This document shows, piece by piece, positions 6,411 to 15,591 of a DNA stretch of 44,209 nt (positions are counted from its first letter, which is position 1; every line of letters starts with the position of its first letter). The notes under the pieces are model-generated. The model was given only the letters and a program-made list of their open reading frames with translations. It was not told the DNA's origin and did not search any database. The translations under genes and the position numbers were made by a program. The stretch lies in the UHGV virus genome UHGV-0377591; one strand, given 5' to 3'. Source of the DNA: a virus.

Positions 6411-6605
6411 ATGAAACACGAATATGACCGCAAACCAGCACGTGACATCGTACCTGGCGATATGATTTTCAACGTTAAGACCCGTCGTCCTGTTGCCGTT
6501 GATACGGTGTTCGTCGAGTCGAACGGTAAACTGGTTATCGAAGACGTAACGGGTAATGTTACGGCGTTTGGGCGGAAGGAATTGGTACTCTACGTTAAGG
6601 GTTGA
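6411..6605 (+). CDS. Hypothetical protein, 64 aa
   Basis: ORF track; ribosome-binding site AAGGAATTGAGAA upstream. Confidence 0.6.
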   Translation: MKHEYDRKPARDIVPGDMIFNVKTRRPVAVDTVFVESNGKLVIEDVTGNVTAFGRKELVLYVKG

Positions 6606-6607
6606 TT

Positions 6608-8032
6608 ATGTCTAAATTTATCCGTCGAGAGTACCAGAAGCTCATGACTTCGTTCATGCTGCAACACCCGCGCTGTAATATTTGGGCCTCGATGGGCGCG
6701 GGCAAAAGTTCCGCAACGATGTGGGTTCTAAACCGCCTGTTCCGCAACGGGCAGCTTACGGAAGAGGACCGCGTGTTAATCCTCGCCCCGTTACGTGTTG
6801 CATCCGGTACGTGGCCCGCAGAACAAACTAAGTGGGGTTTCCCTTGTCTGAGTGTCGTCGATGCGACCGGTAGCGAGAGGCGTCGCATCGCGGCGCTGGA
6901 GTCGGACGCTAACGTGGTATGCACCAACTACGAAGTTATCGAGTGGCTGATTGACTACTACGGCAAAGACGACTGGCCTTTTACGGTTATCGTTGCCGAT
7001 GAGAGCACGAAACTGAAATCATTCCGCAGTCGTTCAGGCGGCAGCAAGCGGGCAAAGGCGCTTAGCAAGGTTGCGTTCGGTAAGGTCAAGCGTTTTATAA
7101 ACCTGACGGGAACGCCATCACCTAACGGCCTCAAAGACTTGTGGGGCCAGAACTGGTTTATCGACGCGGGCGAGCGCCTCGGCTCATCGTACACGGCATT
7201 CACCGACCGCTGGTTCAACTCGGTACAGAAAGGCAAATCGGCTATGGCGCGCGAATACCACGCTCGCCCTGGTGCGGATAATGAAATTCACCAGAATATG
7301 AAAGACATCAGCCTGACGATTGACGCCGCCGAGTGGTTTGGTTGTGAAGCACCTATTATCGTGCCGATGGAAATTGACCTGCCGAAGAAAGCGCGTCAGG
7401 CGTACATAGATATGGAGGAGAAGCTATTCGCAGAACTGGAAAGTGGGGAAGTTGAAGCGGCTAACGCCGCGGCGAAGACGTCGAAGTGCTTGCAGATTGC
7501 ATCTGGTGCCGTATATGTGTCAGGGCCGGACGGAGAAGCAACGAAAGACTGGGAGAAAGTGCACGACACGAAACTGGATGCGCTTGAGTCAATTGTTGAG
7601 GAGTTACAAGGTGCGCCGTTGCTGGTGGCCTATCAGTTCAAGCACGAACTGGAGCGCATCCTTAAGAGATTCCCACAAGCCCAGGCGTTCGCCAAAGGCG
7701 CGAATGGCAATAAGCAGATGGAAGCGTGGAACCGTGGTGAAATCGAAATCCTATGCGTGCACCCTGCGTCAGCCGGGCATGGTCTCAATTTACAGGACGG
7801 TGGCCATCATCTGGCGTTTATTTCGCAAGGGTGGAACCTTGAGCACTATTTGCAGGTTGTTGAGCGTATAGGTCCAGTCCGACAAAAACAGGCGGGCCAC
7901 GAACGACCGGTATTTCTCTACCACATCGTTGCTAAAGACACGCTGGATGAGGTTGTTGCCGCGCGTACAGACGAGAAGAAATCGGTCCAGGAAGAGTTGC
8001 TTAATTACATGAAGAGACGAGGTAAGAAATGA
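6608..8032 (+). CDS. SF2 (SNF2/DEAD-like) DNA helicase
   Basis: Start moved to ATG 6608 (AAGGG upstream). Walker A SMGAGKSS; motif II VIVADESTKLKS. Confidence 0.8.
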   Translation: MSKFIRREYQKLMTSFMLQHPRCNIWASMGAGKSSATMWVLNRLFRNGQLTEEDRVLILAPLRVASGTWPAEQTKWGFPCLSVVDATGSERRRIAALESDANVVCTNYEVIEWLIDYYGKDDWPFTVIVADESTKLKSFRSRSGGSKRAKALSKVAFGKVKRFINLTGTPSPNGLKDLWGQNWFIDAGERLGSSYTAFTDRWFNSVQKGKSAMAREYHARPGADNEIHQNMKDISLTIDAAEWFGCEAPIIVPMEIDLPKKARQAYIDMEEKLFAELESGEVEAANAAAKTSKCLQIASGAVYVSGPDGEATKDWEKVHDTKLDALESIVEELQGAPLLVAYQFKHELERILKRFPQAQAFAKGANGNKQMEAWNRGEIEILCVHPASAGHGLNLQDGGHHLAFISQGWNLEHYLQVVERIGPVRQKQAGHERPVFLYHIVAKDTLDEVVAARTDEKKSVQEELLNYMKRRGKK

Positions 8033-8214
8033 AACTTAATGTTGACGATGAAATATACAGCATACACTCATTCAATACTTTCACCATCGAGTACATATCG
8101 AAAGACGGCAACAGCTTTGTTTTGGTAAGCTCGGACGGTAAATACGAAAAGTCACGATGCTACACGCTGCCGGACATAAAGCGCAGTTTCAAGAAAAGCG
8201 AAGGTAAGAAATGA
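8029..8214 (+). CDS. Hypothetical protein, 61 aa
   Basis: ORF track; ATGA overlap with the helicase stop. Confidence 0.55.
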   Translation: MKLNVDDEIYSIHSFNTFTIEYISKDGNSFVLVSSDGKYEKSRCYTLPDIKRSFKKSEGKK

Positions 8215-8348
8215 ACATCACAGCCCCGATTCCAGCATTGCAAAAACGTATCAAGGAACTCGAAGAGGAGGTTCTACGACTACGGCAGCAAAGAGACGCC
8301 GCTAATGCTCAACTGGCGTTTGTACTGGAGAAGTTATCAGAAGAGTAG
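8211..8348 (+). CDS. Small coiled-coil protein, 45 aa (not in the ORF track)
   Basis: Manual translation MNITAPIPALQKRIKELEEEVLRLRQQRDAANAQLAFVLEKLSEE; ATGA overlap. Confidence 0.4.
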   Translation: MNITAPIPALQKRIKELEEEVLRLRQQRDAANAQLAFVLEKLSEE

Positions 8349-8350
8349 AG

Positions 8351-8378
8351 AAAAGGCCCCGTTTGGGGCCTTTTGTAT
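8351..8378. terminator. Bidirectional rho-independent terminator between the convergent early and late operons
   Basis: AAAA-GGCCCC-GTTT-GGGGCC-TTTT. Confidence 0.8.
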
Positions 8379-10751
8379 TTAAATGACGAATTGAGATGAA
8401 GATTTAACCGTTATTGTGTTACCGGAAGCCCCCTTGTTAATCAGGGCTATCTTGCCGCCAGAGTGACCAGTAACAGTTTGTTGAACAGTGCCGCCGGTAG
8501 TGGGTTTAACTGTTATTGTAGGTACTGAAGGTGCCAGGCCGGCTGTGAGCATGACTTCGCCGGTCACATCGCAAGTCAAGGTGCCGATAACAGTAAGTGC
8601 GCCAAAAAGCATCGTCGAGATCTCGATGCCAGTCGCCACTCGCTTGGCGACAACTCCACTTTGTGACGTGGGTTTGTAGTAAAAAACAACACCACAACCA
8701 ACGGGCAAAGCTGACAGGACAACATTTTGAACATTTGATGACTTAGTAGCGCCGTACATATCCGGTGCTTCATCATTTGCGGTTTCAGCCGCATATGACA
8801 ATAACAGATCAGCTTTATCCCTTAATTGACCGTAAACACCCTTTATCGCATTTGCAGCCAGGTATACAGAGGCGTTCTGAGAACATGATTCGTTCAGCTC
8901 TCCTCTGAATAACAGAGCGGGAGGGTATACTTTTGACGGCGTACCATCGTAAATAATCTCAATCTGATTCAGTCCTTTTCTAAGGATCCCAGTTCGTGTG
9001 GTGAGTTTGTTCGTAAACGATGAGACGCCATTACTCGCGATATTACCGGAGCTATATGCTGTATTACGGGTATCTTGTTGGCGTATTGATACAGTATTTG
9101 CGCGCCTGGAACCAATGTAAGTAGGGTTATATGGCTCAAAAATAACCATTGATATGTCAGAAGTATCACACCAGACAAAATATCGTATGGTTAAATTTTC
9201 AGTAGCGGGCTTAACCACGCCCCATCCGGTAAGCCCATCCAGGTATGAATTTCCGCTAAGTCGCTCCATAGAAACGTCATATGTACTGCCGGAAGGGTAC
9301 CCGAATGGTTGGATATCGTTAGGCGACACAGGCAGGAAATTATTCCCTTTTGTGGCCTTATGGACGCGATAAGGCATAACCTTGGTCGCGGCATAAGCGC
9401 CAATATATTGGTGACCAAGGGGCGCAAAGTGCGTGTAGTCGAAAGAGCCATCGGTAGGACGACGGCAAATTTCTCCTAAGGTGTAGCTACCGACATCTCT
9501 GTACATCTCAGTTACTGCCTGAGAGAGATCGAGGAACTCTACCGCGGGGAACAGGCGTTCAATATGCTTCTTGATTGATGCCTCGAGAGCCGCCCGTTGT
9601 GAGCCATTCTGGTTCATTGAAACAACGCAGACAGCACATCCATAGCCCCATGCTTTACGGATAAACTGCTCAAAACGGAATAAGTACTGATCGAACCCTA
9701 ACGTATCCAGTTGGCCGTTATCGTTAACGCCCATAGACATAAAGCAGACATCCGGTGGAACATTCCCGTATGCAGTGTTTTTGAAAAAGCCATGGTCGAA
9801 ATTACGATTAGCCCACCCGTCAATAAGTCGCTTTCCAGAAGATGCGCAGTTTTCTGCTTTAAAGATGAAAGCACCATTTTTTGTAAATCGGTTAAGCCAG
9901 TCCGTGAAGGTACGGAACCAGGAACCTGCGCCACCATTGCCATTGTGGTCGTAATTAGTCGAAGAAAGGTCCCCGTTTGAATCAGTTGGGTTGGCTACCC
10001 AGTCGGTTCCGTATGCGCCGTCTGTGATTGAGTCACCAATGATACCAACACGACATAGCGTATTGCGGCGAGCGAACTGGTTTATTACGTTGAATGCAGT
10101 GTATTTGCTCCCATGAGTTGCCAGTGAAACGTCGAAAATGTGCTCGTTACCCCATGGGTCGCGCGTGAGAATTTTTCCTTCACCAGTAAATTTTGTTACA
10201 TCATCATCTGGCAGGAAATTACAGCGTAGCTGGACGTCTTTTGGGATATAAACTTTGCCAGGGAATGCATACAATGCGGCCCGGTTATCTGTTGTGCTGT
10301 TTATAACCACCCCAGGAACATATTTAACGGCGGTTGCGTCCGTTCTGTACATGCCATTTTCAAGGTCATTGCGTAGATTCGGGTCTGTTTGCGGTTTCCA
10401 ATTTGTGTCCAGTAACGGGTTAGTTTCCGCGGGGACAACCTTTGGTAAAGAACCGCCCCATGAATACCAGGCCATGCTTACTGGGTCATAAACGACCTTA
10501 TTGCGGTCTGTAGCCGATAATGTCCCGCCGGTAGTGAAATCAAAAGATGCCGGGAAGAACCCCGCATCTCGCAACACGGCAGGGAGAGTCTTCTGCATCT
10601 GACCAGTAACCGCGTTGGTCGCATAATCGATATCCGCACCACCGGTTACGCCGCCGGATTTACCGGTAATAACCTCGGCTTCGAAAATCTGGTGCTTCTT
10701 GGCGGTTTGTAAATCCGCCAGGCTTAAAACGTCACCGCATCCGCTTGACAT
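8379..10751 (-). CDS. Tail fibre/spike protein with internal SGNH (GDSL) hydrolase-like domain, 790 aa
   Basis: GDSL block RVGIIGDSITDGAYG; last gene of the tail module; Ser/Thr/Gly-rich C-terminus. Confidence 0.75.
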   Translation of the reverse strand: MSSGCGDVLSLADLQTAKKHQIFEAEVITGKSGGVTGGADIDYATNAVTGQMQKTLPAVLRDAGFFPASFDFTTGGTLSATDRNKVVYDPVSMAWYSWGGSLPKVVPAETNPLLDTNWKPQTDPNLRNDLENGMYRTDATAVKYVPGVVINSTTDNRAALYAFPGKVYIPKDVQLRCNFLPDDDVTKFTGEGKILTRDPWGNEHIFDVSLATHGSKYTAFNVINQFARRNTLCRVGIIGDSITDGAYGTDWVANPTDSNGDLSSTNYDHNGNGGAGSWFRTFTDWLNRFTKNGAFIFKAENCASSGKRLIDGWANRNFDHGFFKNTAYGNVPPDVCFMSMGVNDNGQLDTLGFDQYLFRFEQFIRKAWGYGCAVCVVSMNQNGSQRAALEASIKKHIERLFPAVEFLDLSQAVTEMYRDVGSYTLGEICRRPTDGSFDYTHFAPLGHQYIGAYAATKVMPYRVHKATKGNNFLPVSPNDIQPFGYPSGSTYDVSMERLSGNSYLDGLTGWGVVKPATENLTIRYFVWCDTSDISMVIFEPYNPTYIGSRRANTVSIRQQDTRNTAYSSGNIASNGVSSFTNKLTTRTGILRKGLNQIEIIYDGTPSKVYPPALLFRGELNESCSQNASVYLAANAIKGVYGQLRDKADLLLSYAAETANDEAPDMYGATKSSNVQNVVLSALPVGCGVVFYYKPTSQSGVVAKRVATGIEISTMLFGALTVIGTLTCDVTGEVMLTAGLAPSVPTITVKPTTGGTVQQTVTGHSGGKIALINKGASGNTITVKSSSQFVI

Positions 10752-10763
10752 ATAGAGTCCTCT

Positions 10764-13394
10764 TTAATTAAAACCATCGCTGAATCCGTCGGAGAAATCG
10801 CTGCCGTATGGCGCGACGCCGTCGTATTTATAGAAATCTGCTTCATAGTTAATCCCGGTAATCTTAACCGTTCTGTCGTCTCCGGGGTCAACTGTAGAAA
10901 CAAGAATCATCTGAGCATTATGCCTTGCTTCGTTACCGAATGAAAACTCAGTTTTTAGTGCGCTATTCCCTGTGTATATCGCCTCTTGAGGCGCAGAGAG
11001 CATAACCACTTCACGGTCGTGGCTTCCAGGCACAACAGCAACACTTTGAACTCCGCCGTCTCTCTTCTTAAGAATCAGTGAGTGGTCATCCCCCGGAGTA
11101 AACGTAACCGGCTGAGAAAGAGTAAGGGTAAGCCCATTAACGGCAACGACATAACCATCTTGAGGTGCTACTCGCGAGCCTTTAACTACGCTTATTGCCC
11201 GTCCTGGAAGCACAAAAACCCCTTCTTCTGTCGCCGTGAATGATACCGTCACCTTCTTCAACAGGTTCTTCTGGTACCGACGGTACGCCGCCCAGTACGC
11301 CTGACGATAATTACGTATACCTTTAGAGTCATACGTTTCTGTGTTAACACCACCCTCGGCGGGAATGCTGATGGTCTCTTTTACGTTAGTATCTGGGTTG
11401 ATGTAGGAGAACTTAAGACTATCGTATACCTGAGCGTCGTTGAATGTGCGCGTCCACTTTTCCGAAGCTGTTGTCTTACTTCGATGTGTGAATACCATTT
11501 CCGGCCCCATACGCGGGCGCTCGAAATCCAGTAATATGTCTTGCCCTTTACGATATGGAGTGCAGAAAATAGCATCGGCTATTGTGCTGATGATATCCTG
11601 CATGGTCATTTTATAGTCGTCAAAAGTGTAGCAGAATTGACCCGCCTCCACGTTACCGAAATAATTCTCAATCTCGGTCTGAGTCGCTAACAACTTGTCC
11701 ATATTGGATGTTGTTAGGTTGAGATTACCTACTACTGGGTCACGGGCGAGACGTATTAATGATTGAATGGCCTGAGTATTCGGTGTCATTACGGTGTCGA
11801 ATACACCATTACCGAGGTATTTGTACACCATCTCTGTGGCGACCATACGTAACTGTGGTTGCTTAATCTCTGCGGCCCGCGGCGTCTGCTTACGTGCCGA
11901 GTGTACGGTAGTACGATTGCCGTAATGTGGCGTAGTGTCACGGACCTGACCGTAAAGGTTGATATAGGAAACCTCGTCTACCACGGTGCCCTTGAAATCA
12001 AGGTCCAGGTTGGTAACACGACGGGCACGTACCCTAACTTTCGACCTCATGGGCAAGTCGGCGTAAATAGTAACTCCGGTGTAGTCGGCGGACCGACCAG
12101 ATATAACGGCCTGTTTTGAATAGATACTCCCGTATGGGGCACCGGTTTCATCGAGTAGTTGGTATTGGAGTTCAATAGTTACCGACGTACGCAATTTACT
12201 GCCGTTGTCTTTATACATACCGTTAGCGGCAGCGATGTTGGCTACTACGCGTTCAACTTCCAGGCGGTTTAAGGTGGTCCAGTCGGTTAATGTTCTTTCA
12301 TACGTATCCACGGGGCCTACCCACGTGTCACTTCTCTGGGAAAGTGAATAGGTGGTTGAGCCTAAAGCAGCCCAATTAGACGCGCCGCCGGTGTCGACCC
12401 GCAGCTCGAAGTTATCGACATAAAGAACACGAAAGTTGCCGTTGGTATTTGTTACGTCCGGAACGTCAAAGTTATTGAACGACGCGGTGTCACCAACAGA
12501 TAATATTTCCGCGAAGCCAGAATCCCCCGTGTCGTCATACAGGTATCCAATTTTTGTAGCAGAGTCATATCTCACGCGGCCCGTGTCGCTTGGGTTGACC
12601 CGAATATCGTTCTGGGCTTTAAGAACGGCTCCATCTACTTCATTAGACGCGATAGTTATATAAAGATTCTGATTGATAGGTTCCCCCACCAGAAGCTGCG
12701 GGGTATTTGTATTGTTGGGGGATGTAAACGGCGCGTACACCGCGACAGAGGTCCCCGTAATCTCCTGTACCTTAGTATCGCCGTCGGTAATATCTTCGGC
12801 CTTGATGTCCAGATACCCACGACCGGCATCGTAGTATCCGTATTCAATAATGCGACCAGATTCATCGAATATTTTATAGGTAGTCATGAGGTCATTAGGG
12901 ATAGTCTGGACTCTGCCGCAAATATCATACGACCGTTCATATGGACGGGGTTTATTGTTTCGGTCCGTCAGGCTGTTGTTGGGGGACTCAGCCTGCTGGT
13001 TCGCTAAACTCGTTTTAGGCGTTTTCTGCGACGGAGAAATCAACTTGGTAACAAATTTAAGCACACCCAAAGGGTCCAGGAGTTTACCCAGAAAACCGCC
13101 ACCGCCACCAGCGCCTTCGATAATATGGAAAACATCGTCTTCTTTCAGCGCTTCGAAATCTTCAGTTACTTCCGTGTCCTCGCCGATCTCGCCACGGTAA
13201 ATACGTACAGGCACCCCGTCGGGGATGTTAGCGACGACGTATTCCATCGGCGGTACGTTGTGCCGTTCGCGGTCGAAAGTACCGTCTTCGTTACGGGTGT
13301 AATGTAATGTCAGCGCCAAAATTCTATCTCCGCATAAGTTTCGCGCAAGTCTTCCAGACGGTCTAACCGTACCTGGCGACTCGCCAGCTCGCAA
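10764..13394 (-). CDS. Tail tip / host-specificity protein (lambda J-like), N-terminus may include an I-like segment
   Basis: 876-aa ORF after the K-like gene. Start uncertain: the first codon overlaps the K-like gene by 85 nt; an internal ATG lies at 13250. Confidence 0.7.
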   Translation of the reverse strand: MRAGESPGTVRPSGRLARNLCGDRILALTLHYTRNEDGTFDRERHNVPPMEYVVANIPDGVPVRIYRGEIGEDTEVTEDFEALKEDDVFHIIEGAGGGGGFLGKLLDPLGVLKFVTKLISPSQKTPKTSLANQQAESPNNSLTDRNNKPRPYERSYDICGRVQTIPNDLMTTYKIFDESGRIIEYGYYDAGRGYLDIKAEDITDGDTKVQEITGTSVAVYAPFTSPNNTNTPQLLVGEPINQNLYITIASNEVDGAVLKAQNDIRVNPSDTGRVRYDSATKIGYLYDDTGDSGFAEILSVGDTASFNNFDVPDVTNTNGNFRVLYVDNFELRVDTGGASNWAALGSTTYSLSQRSDTWVGPVDTYERTLTDWTTLNRLEVERVVANIAAANGMYKDNGSKLRTSVTIELQYQLLDETGAPYGSIYSKQAVISGRSADYTGVTIYADLPMRSKVRVRARRVTNLDLDFKGTVVDEVSYINLYGQVRDTTPHYGNRTTVHSARKQTPRAAEIKQPQLRMVATEMVYKYLGNGVFDTVMTPNTQAIQSLIRLARDPVVGNLNLTTSNMDKLLATQTEIENYFGNVEAGQFCYTFDDYKMTMQDIISTIADAIFCTPYRKGQDILLDFERPRMGPEMVFTHRSKTTASEKWTRTFNDAQVYDSLKFSYINPDTNVKETISIPAEGGVNTETYDSKGIRNYRQAYWAAYRRYQKNLLKKVTVSFTATEEGVFVLPGRAISVVKGSRVAPQDGYVVAVNGLTLTLSQPVTFTPGDDHSLILKKRDGGVQSVAVVPGSHDREVVMLSAPQEAIYTGNSALKTEFSFGNEARHNAQMILVSTVDPGDDRTVKITGINYEADFYKYDGVAPYGSDFSDGFSDGFN

Positions 13395-14190: not shown

Positions 14191-15591
14191 TTAACCGTCC
14201 ACATTAAAGTCGATACGAGTGATGTATTTACTACCCCACGCCGAATCCGCTTGGGGTATGGAGGCATAACCGTCAACAGACGGAACGTTTACCACAGAGT
14301 CGTCGGAATATGTAATGTCGATGCTTGTTGCTCCGCTCATTACTACTTTTGCCGAGGCTGTAGGGCGTGTAATTAAATTTTCTTCGGTTTTAATATACGA
14401 CGATGAATTAGTAGATTTCTCCATTTGGGCACCAAAAACTGATATAGCACTAACACCATCACTTGGGAAAGACGTGTTGTTAGCAGCGTCAGAGGCCCAC
14501 ACAGACGCGTTTATACTTGTCGGGGAGGAATTAGTAATAACTCGCACCCATACTCTAAACCAGCCATCACCTACTGCTATTATACCGCATCTTGAATAGT
14601 CCTTAGCTGATGTTATCACCCCCGTAGATAGGTCTACATAAACAGGATTACTTGCCACCTGACTAGCAAATACTCCGATCTGAACAAGAGCATTATTGTA
14701 CCCATTTGCTTTCACAAAAACAGAATAGGTGTATGCCGTAGATGCTTCCGGGGTTATCAATTGTAAAACGTTATGAGTACCAGTGGTTGTTGTTGGGACT
14801 AGTTTGGATGCGCCCGTTCCGCCGGTAGGGTCTTGCGTTCCACCGTAGGTAACAGTAGTCCTTGTTTTCGCCCATACGGGATCCGATAAGTCCTCTGACA
14901 TTTTTAGTAGGTTTAGACCACCAACCTCCGGCGGCACACGCCCAACGGCAACACTATCAATAAATGTTAGAGGCCATTCATTAGTGGCTGATTGCACAAG
15001 ATTGCCGTTGCGGTTGATGTAATAAACCTGCGGCCCGTCGTACACAATGCGGCTATCCAGGGCGGACGCCAGAAGGTTAATCGGCGGGTATCCTGCGGGC
15101 CCTTCATCGCTCCAGATGCGCGGGAACGTAGTCTCATAGTTCGCGTATATTTTCAGGAAACTACCCAGACAATCCCCGTAGCAACCATACAAATCTGGCA
15201 GATTCTTAGTAAGACATGTGTCTTCCTGAATTGCTGTGCGCTCTGCTGTAGCCGTAAACGTAATGACCCAGTTCTTGCCGTCGTCTGTGCTATCGCTAAT
15301 ATCAGACGTAATAAGAACCTGGTGGTCTTCGATACCTAAACCGGTATCATGAGGCATGATGAACGAAGATGCCCCGCCGTCTATGTTATTCAGGAAGCTA
15401 TAGAAAGCCTGACGGCCTAGTGACGATACGACCAGGGTAACGCTAATAGGTACCGGTTCGAAGTATGTATCACGTCCCTGTCGAGGCACGCCACCTTGCA
15501 CTTCTGTACGCCAGATATTACTCCCTCGCGTTTGGGAGTACCCCTTCGACACTATTGGTCGAAGGGACATAGGGAATCTCAAATCACTCAT
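14191..15591 (-). CDS. Minor/distal tail protein (M-like by position) with a Thr/Ser-rich C-terminal extension
   Basis: ORF track; immediately downstream of the tape measure gene. Confidence 0.5.
   Translation of the reverse strand: MSDLRFPMSLRPIVSKGYSQTRGSNIWRTEVQGGVPRQGRDTYFEPVPISVTLVVSSLGRQAFYSFLNNIDGGASSFIMPHDTGLGIEDHQVLITSDISDSTDDGKNWVITFTATAERTAIQEDTCLTKNLPDLYGCYGDCLGSFLKIYANYETTFPRIWSDEGPAGYPPINLLASALDSRIVYDGPQVYYINRNGNLVQSATNEWPLTFIDSVAVGRVPPEVGGLNLLKMSEDLSDPVWAKTRTTVTYGGTQDPTGGTGASKLVPTTTTGTHNVLQLITPEASTAYTYSVFVKANGYNNALVQIGVFASQVASNPVYVDLSTGVITSAKDYSRCGIIAVGDGWFRVWVRVITNSSPTSINASVWASDAANNTSFPSDGVSAISVFGAQMEKSTNSSSYIKTEENLITRPTASAKVVMSGATSIDITYSDDSVVNVPSVDGYASIPQADSAWGSKYITRIDFNVDG

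What the first reader, a model, noticed from the sequence alone, without database searches (positions are those of the whole stretch)
8379..10751. Tail fibre carries an SGNH/GDSL esterase-like domain
The 790-aa protein at the distal end of the tail module contains a textbook GDSL block (RVGIIGDSITDGAYG) in its central part. This suggests an enzymatic receptor-modifying fibre, for example deacetylation of O-antigen or capsule, rather than a purely binding fibre.
Basis: partly seen in the sequence, partly recalled or inferred. Interest (0 to 1): 0.5.

Follow-up and report, generated by a model that had tools for sequence, protein, structure and literature searches.

The report
Esterase tailspike of a Kagunavirus phage
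The 790-residue protein is the tailspike of a small E. coli siphovirus, and it carries an intact sugar-deacetylating (SGNH esterase) module like that of phage G7C gp63.1; this kind of spike is already solved, assayed and annotated, so the finding is correct but ordinary.

Summary
ORF 8379..10751 (-) encodes 790 aa, and RVGIIGDSITDGAYG sits at aa 234-248. It is the last gene of the tail module, just after the J-like tip protein and just before a strong bidirectional terminator.

The protein is a clear homologue of the phage G7C esterase tailspike gp63.1 (PDB 4QNL; E 1.4e-99 by sequence, Foldseek E 6e-68, TM 0.74 over the full length).

All SGNH signature residues are present: Ser241, Gly306, Asn343, Asp438 and His441. 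Four are invariant and Asp438 is in 37 of 39 homologues, down to 28% identity. The esterase core is under strong purifying selection (dN/dS 0.05).

There is no beta-helix depolymerase domain, so this is an esterase-only spike.

The window is a Kagunavirus genome. The same gene (97.6-99.3% nt identity) is in four GenBank phages. The phage Schulenburg record already notes the SGNH hydrolase domain.

The protein is a mosaic. A Kagunavirus anchor (aa 1 to about 94) is joined to a receptor module that is 85% identical to an Enterobacter hormaechei prophage spike. That prophage spike sits next to gtrABC O-antigen modification genes.

The most likely function is removal of O-acetyl groups from host O-antigen during adsorption. 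The substrate was not tested. Verdict: already known, low interest.

The parts
8379..10751 (-). Tailspike gene, 790 aa, full length
   Evidence: ORF. PHROG 21878 'tail fiber protein', E 5e-151. 99.3% nt identity to the phage Schulenburg 'tail spike protein'.
10470..10751 (-). Kagunavirus-type N-terminal virion anchor, aa 1 to about 94. Homology to the Kagunavirus anchor runs on to about aa 130.
   Evidence: 62-77% identical over aa 1-130 to tailspikes of other Kagunavirus phages that carry different C-terminal modules. About 110 phage records match only this 5' part of the gene. No similarity to the Enterobacter prophage spike before aa 95. pLDDT is low for aa 1-41 in the monomer model.
10416..10541 (-). 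Tail_spike_N motif (PF18668, aa 71-112), containing the anchor/receptor-module junction at about aa 95 (WYSWGGSLPKVVP)
   Evidence: Pfam hit, E 7e-6. The BLASTP alignment to P0024 begins at aa 95. [quoted passage not shown]
10128..10319 (-). G7C gp63.1 'domain 3' (PF21562, aa 145-208)
   Evidence: Pfam E 9e-30, above the gathering score. dN/dS is 0.058 against the Enterobacter prophage homologue.
9372..10079 (-). SGNH esterase domain, about aa 225-460. Block I is GDS (Ser241), block II Gly306, block III GxND (Asn343), block V DxxH (Asp438, His441).
   Evidence: Alignment to 4QNL. Ser, Gly, Asn and His are invariant, and Asp is present in 37 of 39 homologues. The model shows an alternating strand/helix pattern with pLDDT mostly above 85. 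Foldseek hits SGNH enzymes 4RSH, 1U8U and 2VPT at probability 1.00. dN/dS is 0.054.
10008..10052 (-). The quoted block-I motif RVGIIGDSITDGAYG (aa 234-248); the nucleophile is Ser241
   Evidence: Position computed. GDSITDG is conserved in 38 of 39 homologues; one has GDSISDG.
8907..9305 (-). Galactose-binding-domain-like module (PF21988 G7C_GBD, aa 483-615)
   Evidence: Pfam E 1e-8, above the gathering score. An all-beta segment in the model. Foldseek also finds CBM6- and CBM66-type carbohydrate-binding modules.
8382..8894 (-). C-terminal beta-sandwich domain (about aa 620-790)
   Evidence: All-beta in the model, pLDDT 71-94. The family profile aligns to 4QNL through chain residue 846, and the Foldseek alignment to 4QNL spans 803 columns. 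By direct sequence search it is found in only four phage records. dN/dS is 0.144.
8351..8374 (.). Bidirectional intrinsic terminator hairpin, shared with the convergent small ORF 8211..8348 (+)
   Evidence: AAAAGGCCCCAAACGGGGCCUUUU, -17.4 kcal/mol, z -5.34. The same element is annotated as a terminator on both strands in phage Schulenburg.
10764..13319 (-). J-like tail-tip / baseplate-hub gene immediately upstream (context)
   Evidence: PHROG 469, E 3e-242. Schulenburg annotates its homologue as 'tip attachment protein J', 851 aa. Homologous to Sf11 gp14 and lambda J.
14191..15591 (-). Distal-tail-protein homologue, the likely docking site for the tailspike (context; this role is inferred)
   Evidence: E 2.8e-82 to Sf11 gp17, chain 9OCC_C. 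In Sf11, six tailspike trimers dock on an adaptor helix of this protein (PMC12724387).

Best explanation
This is the single lateral tailspike of a Kagunavirus (Guernseyvirinae) siphovirus.

It is a modular protein with four parts:
- A genus-specific N-terminal anchor (aa 1 to about 94) fixes it to the tail tip. By analogy with Shigella siphophage Sf11, it probably sits as trimers on the distal-tail-protein ring.
- A G7C gp63.1-type 'domain 3' follows.
- An SGNH esterase domain carries the catalytic triad Ser241-Asp438-His441 and the oxyanion-hole residues Gly306 and Asn343.
- Two beta-sandwich, carbohydrate-binding-like domains complete the protein.

During adsorption the spike binds an O-acetylated surface polysaccharide of the host and hydrolyses the O-acetyl esters. 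The substrate is most likely the O-antigen. There is no beta-helix depolymerase domain, so the glycan backbone is left intact. Binding and processive deacetylation would bring the tail tip through the O-antigen layer to the outer membrane, where the J-like tip acts.

Shown here: the ORF, its position in the tail module, homology to gp63.1, the fold, conservation of every catalytic residue, purifying selection, and the mosaic origin of the gene.

Inferred: esterase activity, the substrate (O-antigen rather than capsule), the trimeric state, docking on the distal tail protein, and the consequence for infection.

The confidence of 0.85 is for 'gp63.1-type SGNH esterase tailspike that deacetylates a surface polysaccharide'. 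For O-antigen specifically it is about 0.6.
For: Sequence: 4QNL (G7C gp63.1) matches at E 1.4e-99 over aa 72-616. A profile of 39 homologues matches 4QNL at E 3.3e-249 across the full length.

Structure: the AlphaFold2 model has mean pLDDT 84.3 and pTM 0.78. Its best PDB match is 4QNL at E 6.2e-68 and TM 0.74/0.70 over 803 columns. Next come the esterase-active tailspikes of Shigella phages B2 and Moo19, then the SGNH enzymes 4RSH, 1U8U and 2VPT.

Pfam architecture: Tail_spike_N, Gp63_3rd_G7C and G7C_GBD, plus a sub-threshold Lipase_GDSL_2 hit.

Catalytic residues: Ser241, Gly306, Asn343 and His441 are invariant, and Asp438 is present in 37 of 39 homologues.

Selection: aa 281-360 are 100% identical to an Enterobacter prophage homologue while third codon positions are only 55-70% identical. 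dN/dS for the SGNH domain is 0.054.

Context: the gene lies directly downstream of the J-like gene. This is the known tailspike locus of the glycan-dependent Kagunavirus phages (PMC11990801). The 85%-identical prophage spike is followed by gtrA/gtrB/gtrC-like O-antigen glucosylation genes, which points to O-antigen as the receptor class.

Function of relatives: gp63.1 deacetylates O-antigen and this is essential for infection. Moo19 and B2 spikes hydrolyse 4-nitrophenyl acetate. Possum gp66 deacetylates O-polysaccharide.
Against: No enzymatic or host-range data exist for this protein or for its four near-identical GenBank copies; a literature search found no study of them.

Identity to the only biochemically characterised close relative is just 35-37%.

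The generic Pfam GDSL model is below its gathering score.

The host O-type is unknown, and some Kagunavirus phages target capsule (K1G and K1H), so a capsular or other exopolysaccharide substrate is not excluded.

The N-terminal 134 aa give no direct PDB hit, so docking in the Sf11 manner rests on analogy only.
Confidence: 0.85

Rival explanations
1. The fold and chemistry are as described, but the substrate is not the O-antigen. The spike would deacetylate a capsular K-antigen, colanic acid, enterobacterial common antigen or another exopolysaccharide.
For: Guernseyvirinae depend on surface glycans in general, and the prototype Kagunavirus phages K1G and K1H target the K1 capsule. SGNH domains in Klebsiella prophage receptor-binding proteins are proposed to deacetylate capsule (citing Otwinowska et al.). 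Nothing in the sequence identifies the sugar.
Against: Every experimentally studied close relative acts on O-polysaccharide: G7C gp63.1, the Moo19 and B2 spikes, and Possum gp66. The 85%-identical prophage spike lies next to gtrABC, an O-antigen modification operon.
Confidence: 0.2
2. The esterase domain is a catalytically silent lectin. The spike only binds the receptor, and the GDS block is an evolutionary relic.
For: No activity data exist. The PF13472 score is below its gathering threshold.
Against: All five catalytic and oxyanion residues are intact, and they are conserved across 39 homologues down to 28% identity. dN/dS in the domain is 0.054, with 80 consecutive identical residues around blocks II-III despite many synonymous changes. 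Inactivated enzymes usually lose such residues.
Confidence: 0.05
3. The domain is a GDSL lipase or phospholipase that attacks outer-membrane lipids, or lipid A acyl chains, to help the tail penetrate.
For: The SGNH/GDSL superfamily includes lipases and lysophospholipases. One homologue is labelled 'lysophospholipase L1-like esterase' by its source (P0070), and E. coli TAP (1U8U) is among the fold hits.
Against: That label is generic. The nearest solved relative is a polysaccharide deacetylase. The domain is flanked by carbohydrate-binding-like modules (PF21988; CBM6 and CBM66 fold hits). The spike domain lies far from the tail tip, which is the part that contacts the membrane.
Confidence: 0.03

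Closest known systems
Escherichia phage G7C tailspike gp63.1 (PDB 4QNL), an O-antigen O-acetyl esterase (Prokhorov et al. 2017)
   Same: The domain order after the anchor is the same: domain 3, SGNH esterase, galactose-binding-like domain, C-terminal beta domain. Sequence E is 1.4e-99, at 35-37% identity. Full-length fold match is TM 0.74. The window residues Ser241, Asp438 and His441 align to G7C residues 276, 470 and 473. Neither protein has a depolymerase beta-helix.
   Different: G7C is an N4-like podovirus in which gp63.1 hangs on a second fibre, gp66, in a branched complex. Here the module is fused to a Kagunavirus anchor in a siphovirus whose tail module shows one spike gene next to the J-like tip. 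The C-terminal 174 aa are not detectably similar by pairwise BLAST. Activity is proven for G7C and not for this protein.
Tailspikes of Escherichia phages Schulenburg, Snoke, Shashou and Sciku (Kagunavirus; GenBank MK931438-41)
   Same: This is the same gene: 97.6-99.3% nt and 98.5% aa identity, in the same locus and with the same terminator. The Schulenburg record already notes the SGNH hydrolase superfamily domain SSF52266.
   Different: There are 17 nt and 12 aa differences from Schulenburg, all within aa 288-685. The rest of the genome is only about 94% identical. The Shashou copy is labelled 'tailspike endosialidase'.
Enterobacter hormaechei prophage tailspike (P0024 and relatives)
   Same: 85% identity over aa 95-790, with every esterase residue included. 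Both are 790 aa long. Both lie downstream of a J-like protein in a siphovirus-type tail module.
   Different: The N-terminal anchor is unrelated (aa 1-94), and the J-like neighbour is only 25% identical. The prophage is temperate, lives in a different host genus, and carries gtrABC next to the spike.
Esterase tailspikes of Shigella phages Moo19 (gp82, 9D81) and B2 (gp48/gp49, 9D84), and Pectobacterium phage Possum gp66
   Same: All are G7C-like esterase receptor-binding proteins that depend on O-antigen modification. Foldseek gives E 1.7e-11 for Moo19 gp82 and 1.7e-18 for B2. Activity has been shown for these proteins.
   Different: All three are Schitoviridae podoviruses. Sequence identity in the Foldseek alignments is 12-14%.
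Salmonella phage epsilon15 tailspike gp20 'petal' SGNH domain
   Same: It is an SGNH esterase on a tailspike that removes O-acetyl groups from O-antigen. It has the same Ser/Gly/Asn/His signature, and the S787A and H1038A mutants are inactive.
   Different: In epsilon15 the esterase is an accessory domain on a beta-helix endorhamnosidase. Here the esterase is the only recognisable enzyme.

Membership tests
SGNH/GDSL hydrolase superfamily | Block I GDS motif carrying the nucleophilic Ser | tested here: met
   GDS at aa 239-241. Ser241 is invariant in 39 of 39 homologues and aligns to the GDS of 4QNL.
SGNH/GDSL hydrolase superfamily | Block II Gly and block III GxND Asn, which form the oxyanion hole | tested here: met
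   Gly306 (SSGK) and Asn343 (GVND) are both invariant in 39 of 39 homologues.
SGNH/GDSL hydrolase superfamily | Block V DxxH, supplying the Asp and His of the triad | tested here: met
   D438-Y-T-H441. His is present in 39 of 39 homologues and Asp in 37 of 39; the other two have Ser.
SGNH/GDSL hydrolase superfamily | Three-layer alpha/beta/alpha fold with a parallel sheet | tested here: met
   The model shows alternating strands and helices across aa 233-460 at high pLDDT. Foldseek gives probability 1.00 to 4RSH (TMt 0.77), 1U8U (0.75) and 2VPT (0.63).
SGNH/GDSL hydrolase superfamily | Score above the curated threshold of the Pfam GDSL models | tested here: not met
   PF13472 scores 24.4 bits against a 32.9-bit cut-off. 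Several homologues do carry precomputed PF13472 or PF00657 hits. This is a limit of profile sensitivity, not a mechanistic criterion.
SGNH/GDSL hydrolase superfamily | Triad geometry and measured esterase activity | not testable with these tools
G7C gp63.1-type esterase tailspike | The family's signature domains: PF21562 (domain 3) and PF21988 (GBD) flanking the esterase | tested here: met
   PF21562 E 9e-30 and PF21988 E 1e-8, both above their gathering scores and in the same order as in gp63.1.
G7C gp63.1-type esterase tailspike | Full-length sequence and fold homology to 4QNL | tested here: met
   phmmer E 1.4e-99. Profile E 3.3e-249 over chain residues 91-846. Foldseek TM 0.74.
G7C gp63.1-type esterase tailspike | Homotrimer | not testable with these tools
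   Only a monomer could be predicted. Trimers are known for 4QNL relatives.
G7C gp63.1-type esterase tailspike | Removes O-acetyl groups from host O-antigen without cleaving the backbone, and is required for infection | not testable with these tools
   Shown for G7C only. Here it is inferred from homology and from the absence of any depolymerase domain.
Kagunavirus (Guernseyvirinae) tailspike locus | Conserved N-terminal anchor and a position directly downstream of the J-like gene | tested here: met
   aa 1-130 are 62-77% identical to other Kagunavirus spikes. The gene order is identical to Schulenburg, and the locus is described in PMC11990801.
Endosialidase tailspike (the label on the Shashou copy) | Endosialidase beta-propeller catalytic domain | tested here: not met
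   No such Pfam domain was found. The body of the protein is covered by the G7C-type domains. Only the anchor resembles the K1-phage spikes.

The most novel reading that the evidence does not exclude
The evidence does not exclude that a long-tailed siphovirus relies on one esterase-only spike and no polysaccharide depolymerase. If so, processive deacetylation alone would carry a siphovirus tail tip through the O-antigen layer. That would extend to siphoviruses the 'deacetylation motor' idea so far proposed for N4-like podoviruses. In addition, the 85%-identical receptor module shared with Enterobacter hormaechei prophages might mean that one O-acetylated epitope serves as a phage receptor in both genera.
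Probability: 0.3. Interest if true: 0.4.

Novelty: already known. Interest (0 to 1): 0.15.

Why it matters
It matters mainly for annotation and host-range prediction. This phage and its four GenBank relatives should be read as dependent on an O-acetylated surface glycan, so host mutants that lose the O-acetyltransferase would be expected to resist them. The 'endosialidase' label on the Shashou copy appears to be wrong, which matters if these phages are chosen for K1 strains. The gene is also a clean example of receptor-module exchange: one esterase module is joined to at least four different anchors across siphovirus, podovirus and prophage backgrounds. It opens no new biology, because esterase tailspikes are structurally and biochemically established.

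Tried and rejected
- NCBIfam scan: no meaningful hit, only a spurious 15-bit acetyltransferase match.
- N-terminal 134 aa searched alone against PDB sequences: nothing at E <= 1e-3. The Sf11 gp13 match seen with the family profile comes from other alignment members and cannot be claimed for this anchor.
- Direct phage search with the C-terminal 174 aa: only the four sister phages. Its relation to the gp63.1 C-terminal domain rests on the profile and fold matches.
- Consensus terminator scan: it missed the obvious hairpin, which folding confirmed.
- Prokhorov et al. 2017 is not held in the library, so the mutant data for G7C are cited only through secondary papers.
- Literature searches for the four sister phages, and for Guernseyvirinae plus SGNH: no study of this spike.
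- ORFs on the opposite strand inside the gene are all 89 aa or shorter and have no support.
- No tRNA genes in the window.
Full report
**Observation.** ORF 8379..10751 on the minus strand starts with ATG and encodes 790 aa. An AGAGGA ribosome-binding site lies upstream of the ATG, and the gene begins 12 nt after the stop codon of the preceding J-like gene. The quoted block RVGIIGDSITDGAYG occupies aa 234-248. A perfect 10-bp hairpin with flanking A and U runs (8351-8374; -17.4 kcal/mol, z = -5.3) follows the stop codon. It also terminates a convergent 45-aa ORF on the plus strand. The homologous element is annotated as a bidirectional terminator in phage Schulenburg.

**What the window is.** The window is essentially a whole Kagunavirus (Guernseyvirinae) genome. 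The structural region is about 94% identical to Escherichia phage Schulenburg and 90-94% identical to other Kagunavirus phages. The gene in question is 99.3%, 99.2%, 97.8% and 97.6% identical at the nucleotide level to genes of phages Schulenburg, Snoke, Shashou and Sciku. About 106 further records match only the 5' 12-16% of the gene, which encodes the N-terminal anchor. The gene order matches Schulenburg: tape measure, distal-tail-protein homologue, two small genes, J-like protein, tailspike, terminator. The literature describes this position, directly downstream of the J-like protein, as the tailspike locus of the glycan-dependent Kagunavirus phages (PMC11990801).

**What the protein is.**
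- Pfam finds Tail_spike_N (aa 71-112), Gp63_3rd_G7C (aa 145-208, E 9e-30) and G7C_GBD (aa 483-615, E 1e-8). It also finds a sub-threshold Lipase_GDSL_2 match (aa 238-448; 24.4 bits against a cut-off of 32.9).
- Against PDB sequences, the crystal structure of G7C gp63.1 (4QNL) matches at E 1.4e-99 over aa 72-616.
- A profile of 39 homologues matches 4QNL at E 3.3e-249 through to chain residue 846. The C-terminal domain is therefore related as well.
- The AlphaFold2 model, built on that alignment, has mean pLDDT 84.3 and pTM 0.78. Only aa 1-41 are disordered in the monomer.
- The model's best PDB match is 4QNL (E 6.2e-68, TM 0.74/0.70, 803 columns). Next come the esterase-active spikes of Shigella phages B2 and Moo19, then the classical SGNH enzymes 4RSH, 1U8U and 2VPT, and CBM6/CBM66-type sugar-binding modules.
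- No beta-helix or other depolymerase domain is present.

**Catalytic machinery.** The four SGNH signature blocks, as defined by Akoh et al. 2004 and summarised in the epsilon15 preprint, are all present:
- Block I: G239-D240-S241.
- Block II: Gly306, in SSGK.
- Block III: G341-V-N343-D344.
- Block V: D438-Y-T-H441.

In a 39-sequence alignment reaching down to 28% identity, which includes G7C gp63.1, Ser241, Gly306, Asn343 and His441 are invariant. Asp438 is present in 37 of the 39. The window residues align with G7C residues 276, 470 and 473.

Against an Enterobacter prophage homologue, aa 281-360 are 100% identical although third codon positions are only 55-70% identical. Nei-Gojobori dN/dS is 0.054 for the SGNH domain, against 0.13-0.14 for the two distal beta domains. 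The enzyme core is therefore maintained by selection. This argues against a dead, binding-only domain.

**Mosaic origin.**
- aa 1-130 are 62-77% identical to spikes of other Kagunavirus phages that carry unrelated C-terminal enzymes.
- From aa 95 to the end, the protein is 85% identical to a 790-aa tailspike common in Enterobacter hormaechei chromosomes.
- The two proteins' first 94 residues are unrelated, and their J-like neighbours are only 25% identical.
- The junction falls in the conserved WxWxGxLPKxVP motif of PF18668. This motif is the recombination hotspot reported for these receptor-binding proteins (PMC10408124).
- GC content drops from 0.52 in the anchor to 0.47 in the receptor module; the window average is 0.50.
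- Across the database, the same esterase module is joined to Tail_spike_N, P22 head-binding (PF09008), tail-collar (PF12571) and T7 fibre (PF03906) anchors.
- Among deposited phages the module is rare. It occurs in 19 records: G7C, Pectobacterium N4-like phages, Aeromonas ST4, Penshu1, Pisces, SKA64 and the four Kagunavirus phages.

**Mechanism.** G7C gp63.1 removes O-acetyl groups from the E. coli 4s O-antigen, leaves the backbone intact, and is essential for infection. Moo19 and B2 spikes hydrolyse 4-nitrophenyl acetate and depend on O-antigen modification. Possum gp66 deacetylates its host O-polysaccharide.

In the Enterobacter prophage, the spike gene is followed by gtrA/gtrB/gtrC-like genes. 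This is the classic pairing of an O-antigen-specific spike with seroconversion genes. I therefore infer that the window protein binds and deacetylates an O-acetylated O-antigen.

Attachment to the virion is also inferred. The 466-aa protein at 14191..15591 is homologous to Sf11 gp17 (E 2.8e-82), and the J-like protein is homologous to Sf11 gp14. In Sf11, six spike trimers dock on an adaptor helix of gp17 (PMC12724387). However, the window's anchor shows no direct sequence match to Sf11 gp13.

**Rivals.**
- A capsular or other exopolysaccharide substrate remains possible. K1G and K1H of the same genus target capsule.
- A silent lectin role is unlikely given the residue conservation and the dN/dS values.
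- A lipase role is unlikely given the nearest relatives and the flanking carbohydrate-binding modules.

**Comparison and novelty.** The protein passes every sequence and fold criterion for the SGNH superfamily and for the gp63.1-type esterase tailspike family. The one exception is the generic Pfam GDSL threshold. Trimer state and activity cannot be tested here.

The near-identical Schulenburg gene is already annotated as a tail spike with the SGNH hydrolase domain SSF52266 and an HHpred structural match. The family has its own Pfam domains named after G7C. The finding is therefore correct but already known. I found no paper that studies this spike in Kagunavirus. What remains modestly interesting is how an esterase-only spike serves a siphovirus.

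Noticed in passing
L005 (MK931440.1 22348-24720); corresponds to window 8379-10751: The Shashou copy of this gene (97.8% nt identity) is annotated 'tailspike endosialidase', based on BLASTp similarity to the K1ind1 spike. Only the N-terminal anchor is shared, and no endosialidase domain is present, so this is probably a misannotation.
   Followed up: partly
L002 and L003, 10001-15131: Enterobacter hormaechei prophages carry a spike that is 85% identical over aa 95-790. It is immediately followed, on the opposite strand, by gtrA/gtrB/gtrC-like O-antigen glucosylation genes. The neighbouring J-like protein is only 25% identical to the window's, so only the receptor module was exchanged between a virulent E. 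coli phage lineage and a temperate Enterobacter phage.
   Followed up: partly
window 8379-10751 (aa 288-685): Of the 17 nucleotide differences from phage Schulenburg, 12 change the amino acid. All lie in aa 288-685 and none in the first 287 residues (dN 0.0067, dS 0.0090). At positions 386, 426 and 685, Schulenburg and the Enterobacter prophage agree (W, E, D) and the window differs (R, G, G). This may reflect recent host-range tuning, or it may be chance.
   Followed up: partly
window 8029-8348 versus L001 8345-8970: Schulenburg has an HNH homing-endonuclease gene between the helicase gene and the small ORF before the terminator. The window lacks it and has a 61-aa ORF (8029..8214) there instead. 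A 45-aa ORF (8211..8348, +) converges on the tailspike terminator.
   Followed up: no
window 14191-15591 (-) and 10764-13319 (-): The 466-aa protein is a strong homologue of Shigella siphophage Sf11 distal tail protein gp17 (9OCC_C, E 2.8e-82), but only over aa 165-464, the C-terminal appendage. Its N-terminal 164 aa fall outside the match; in Sf11 that region holds the helix that docks the spike. The J-like protein matches Sf11 gp14 and lambda J.
   Followed up: partly
window 10764-13394 (-): The mechanical ORF call starts at a TTG and gives 876 aa. The Schulenburg homologue is 851 aa, which puts the real start near 13319, overlapping the end of the upstream gene.
   Followed up: no
window 6602-8032 (+): An SNF2/Chi-like helicase gene, with the replication genes upstream of it on the plus strand, converges on the tail module at the tailspike terminator. 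The tailspike therefore marks the boundary between two opposed transcription units.
   Followed up: no
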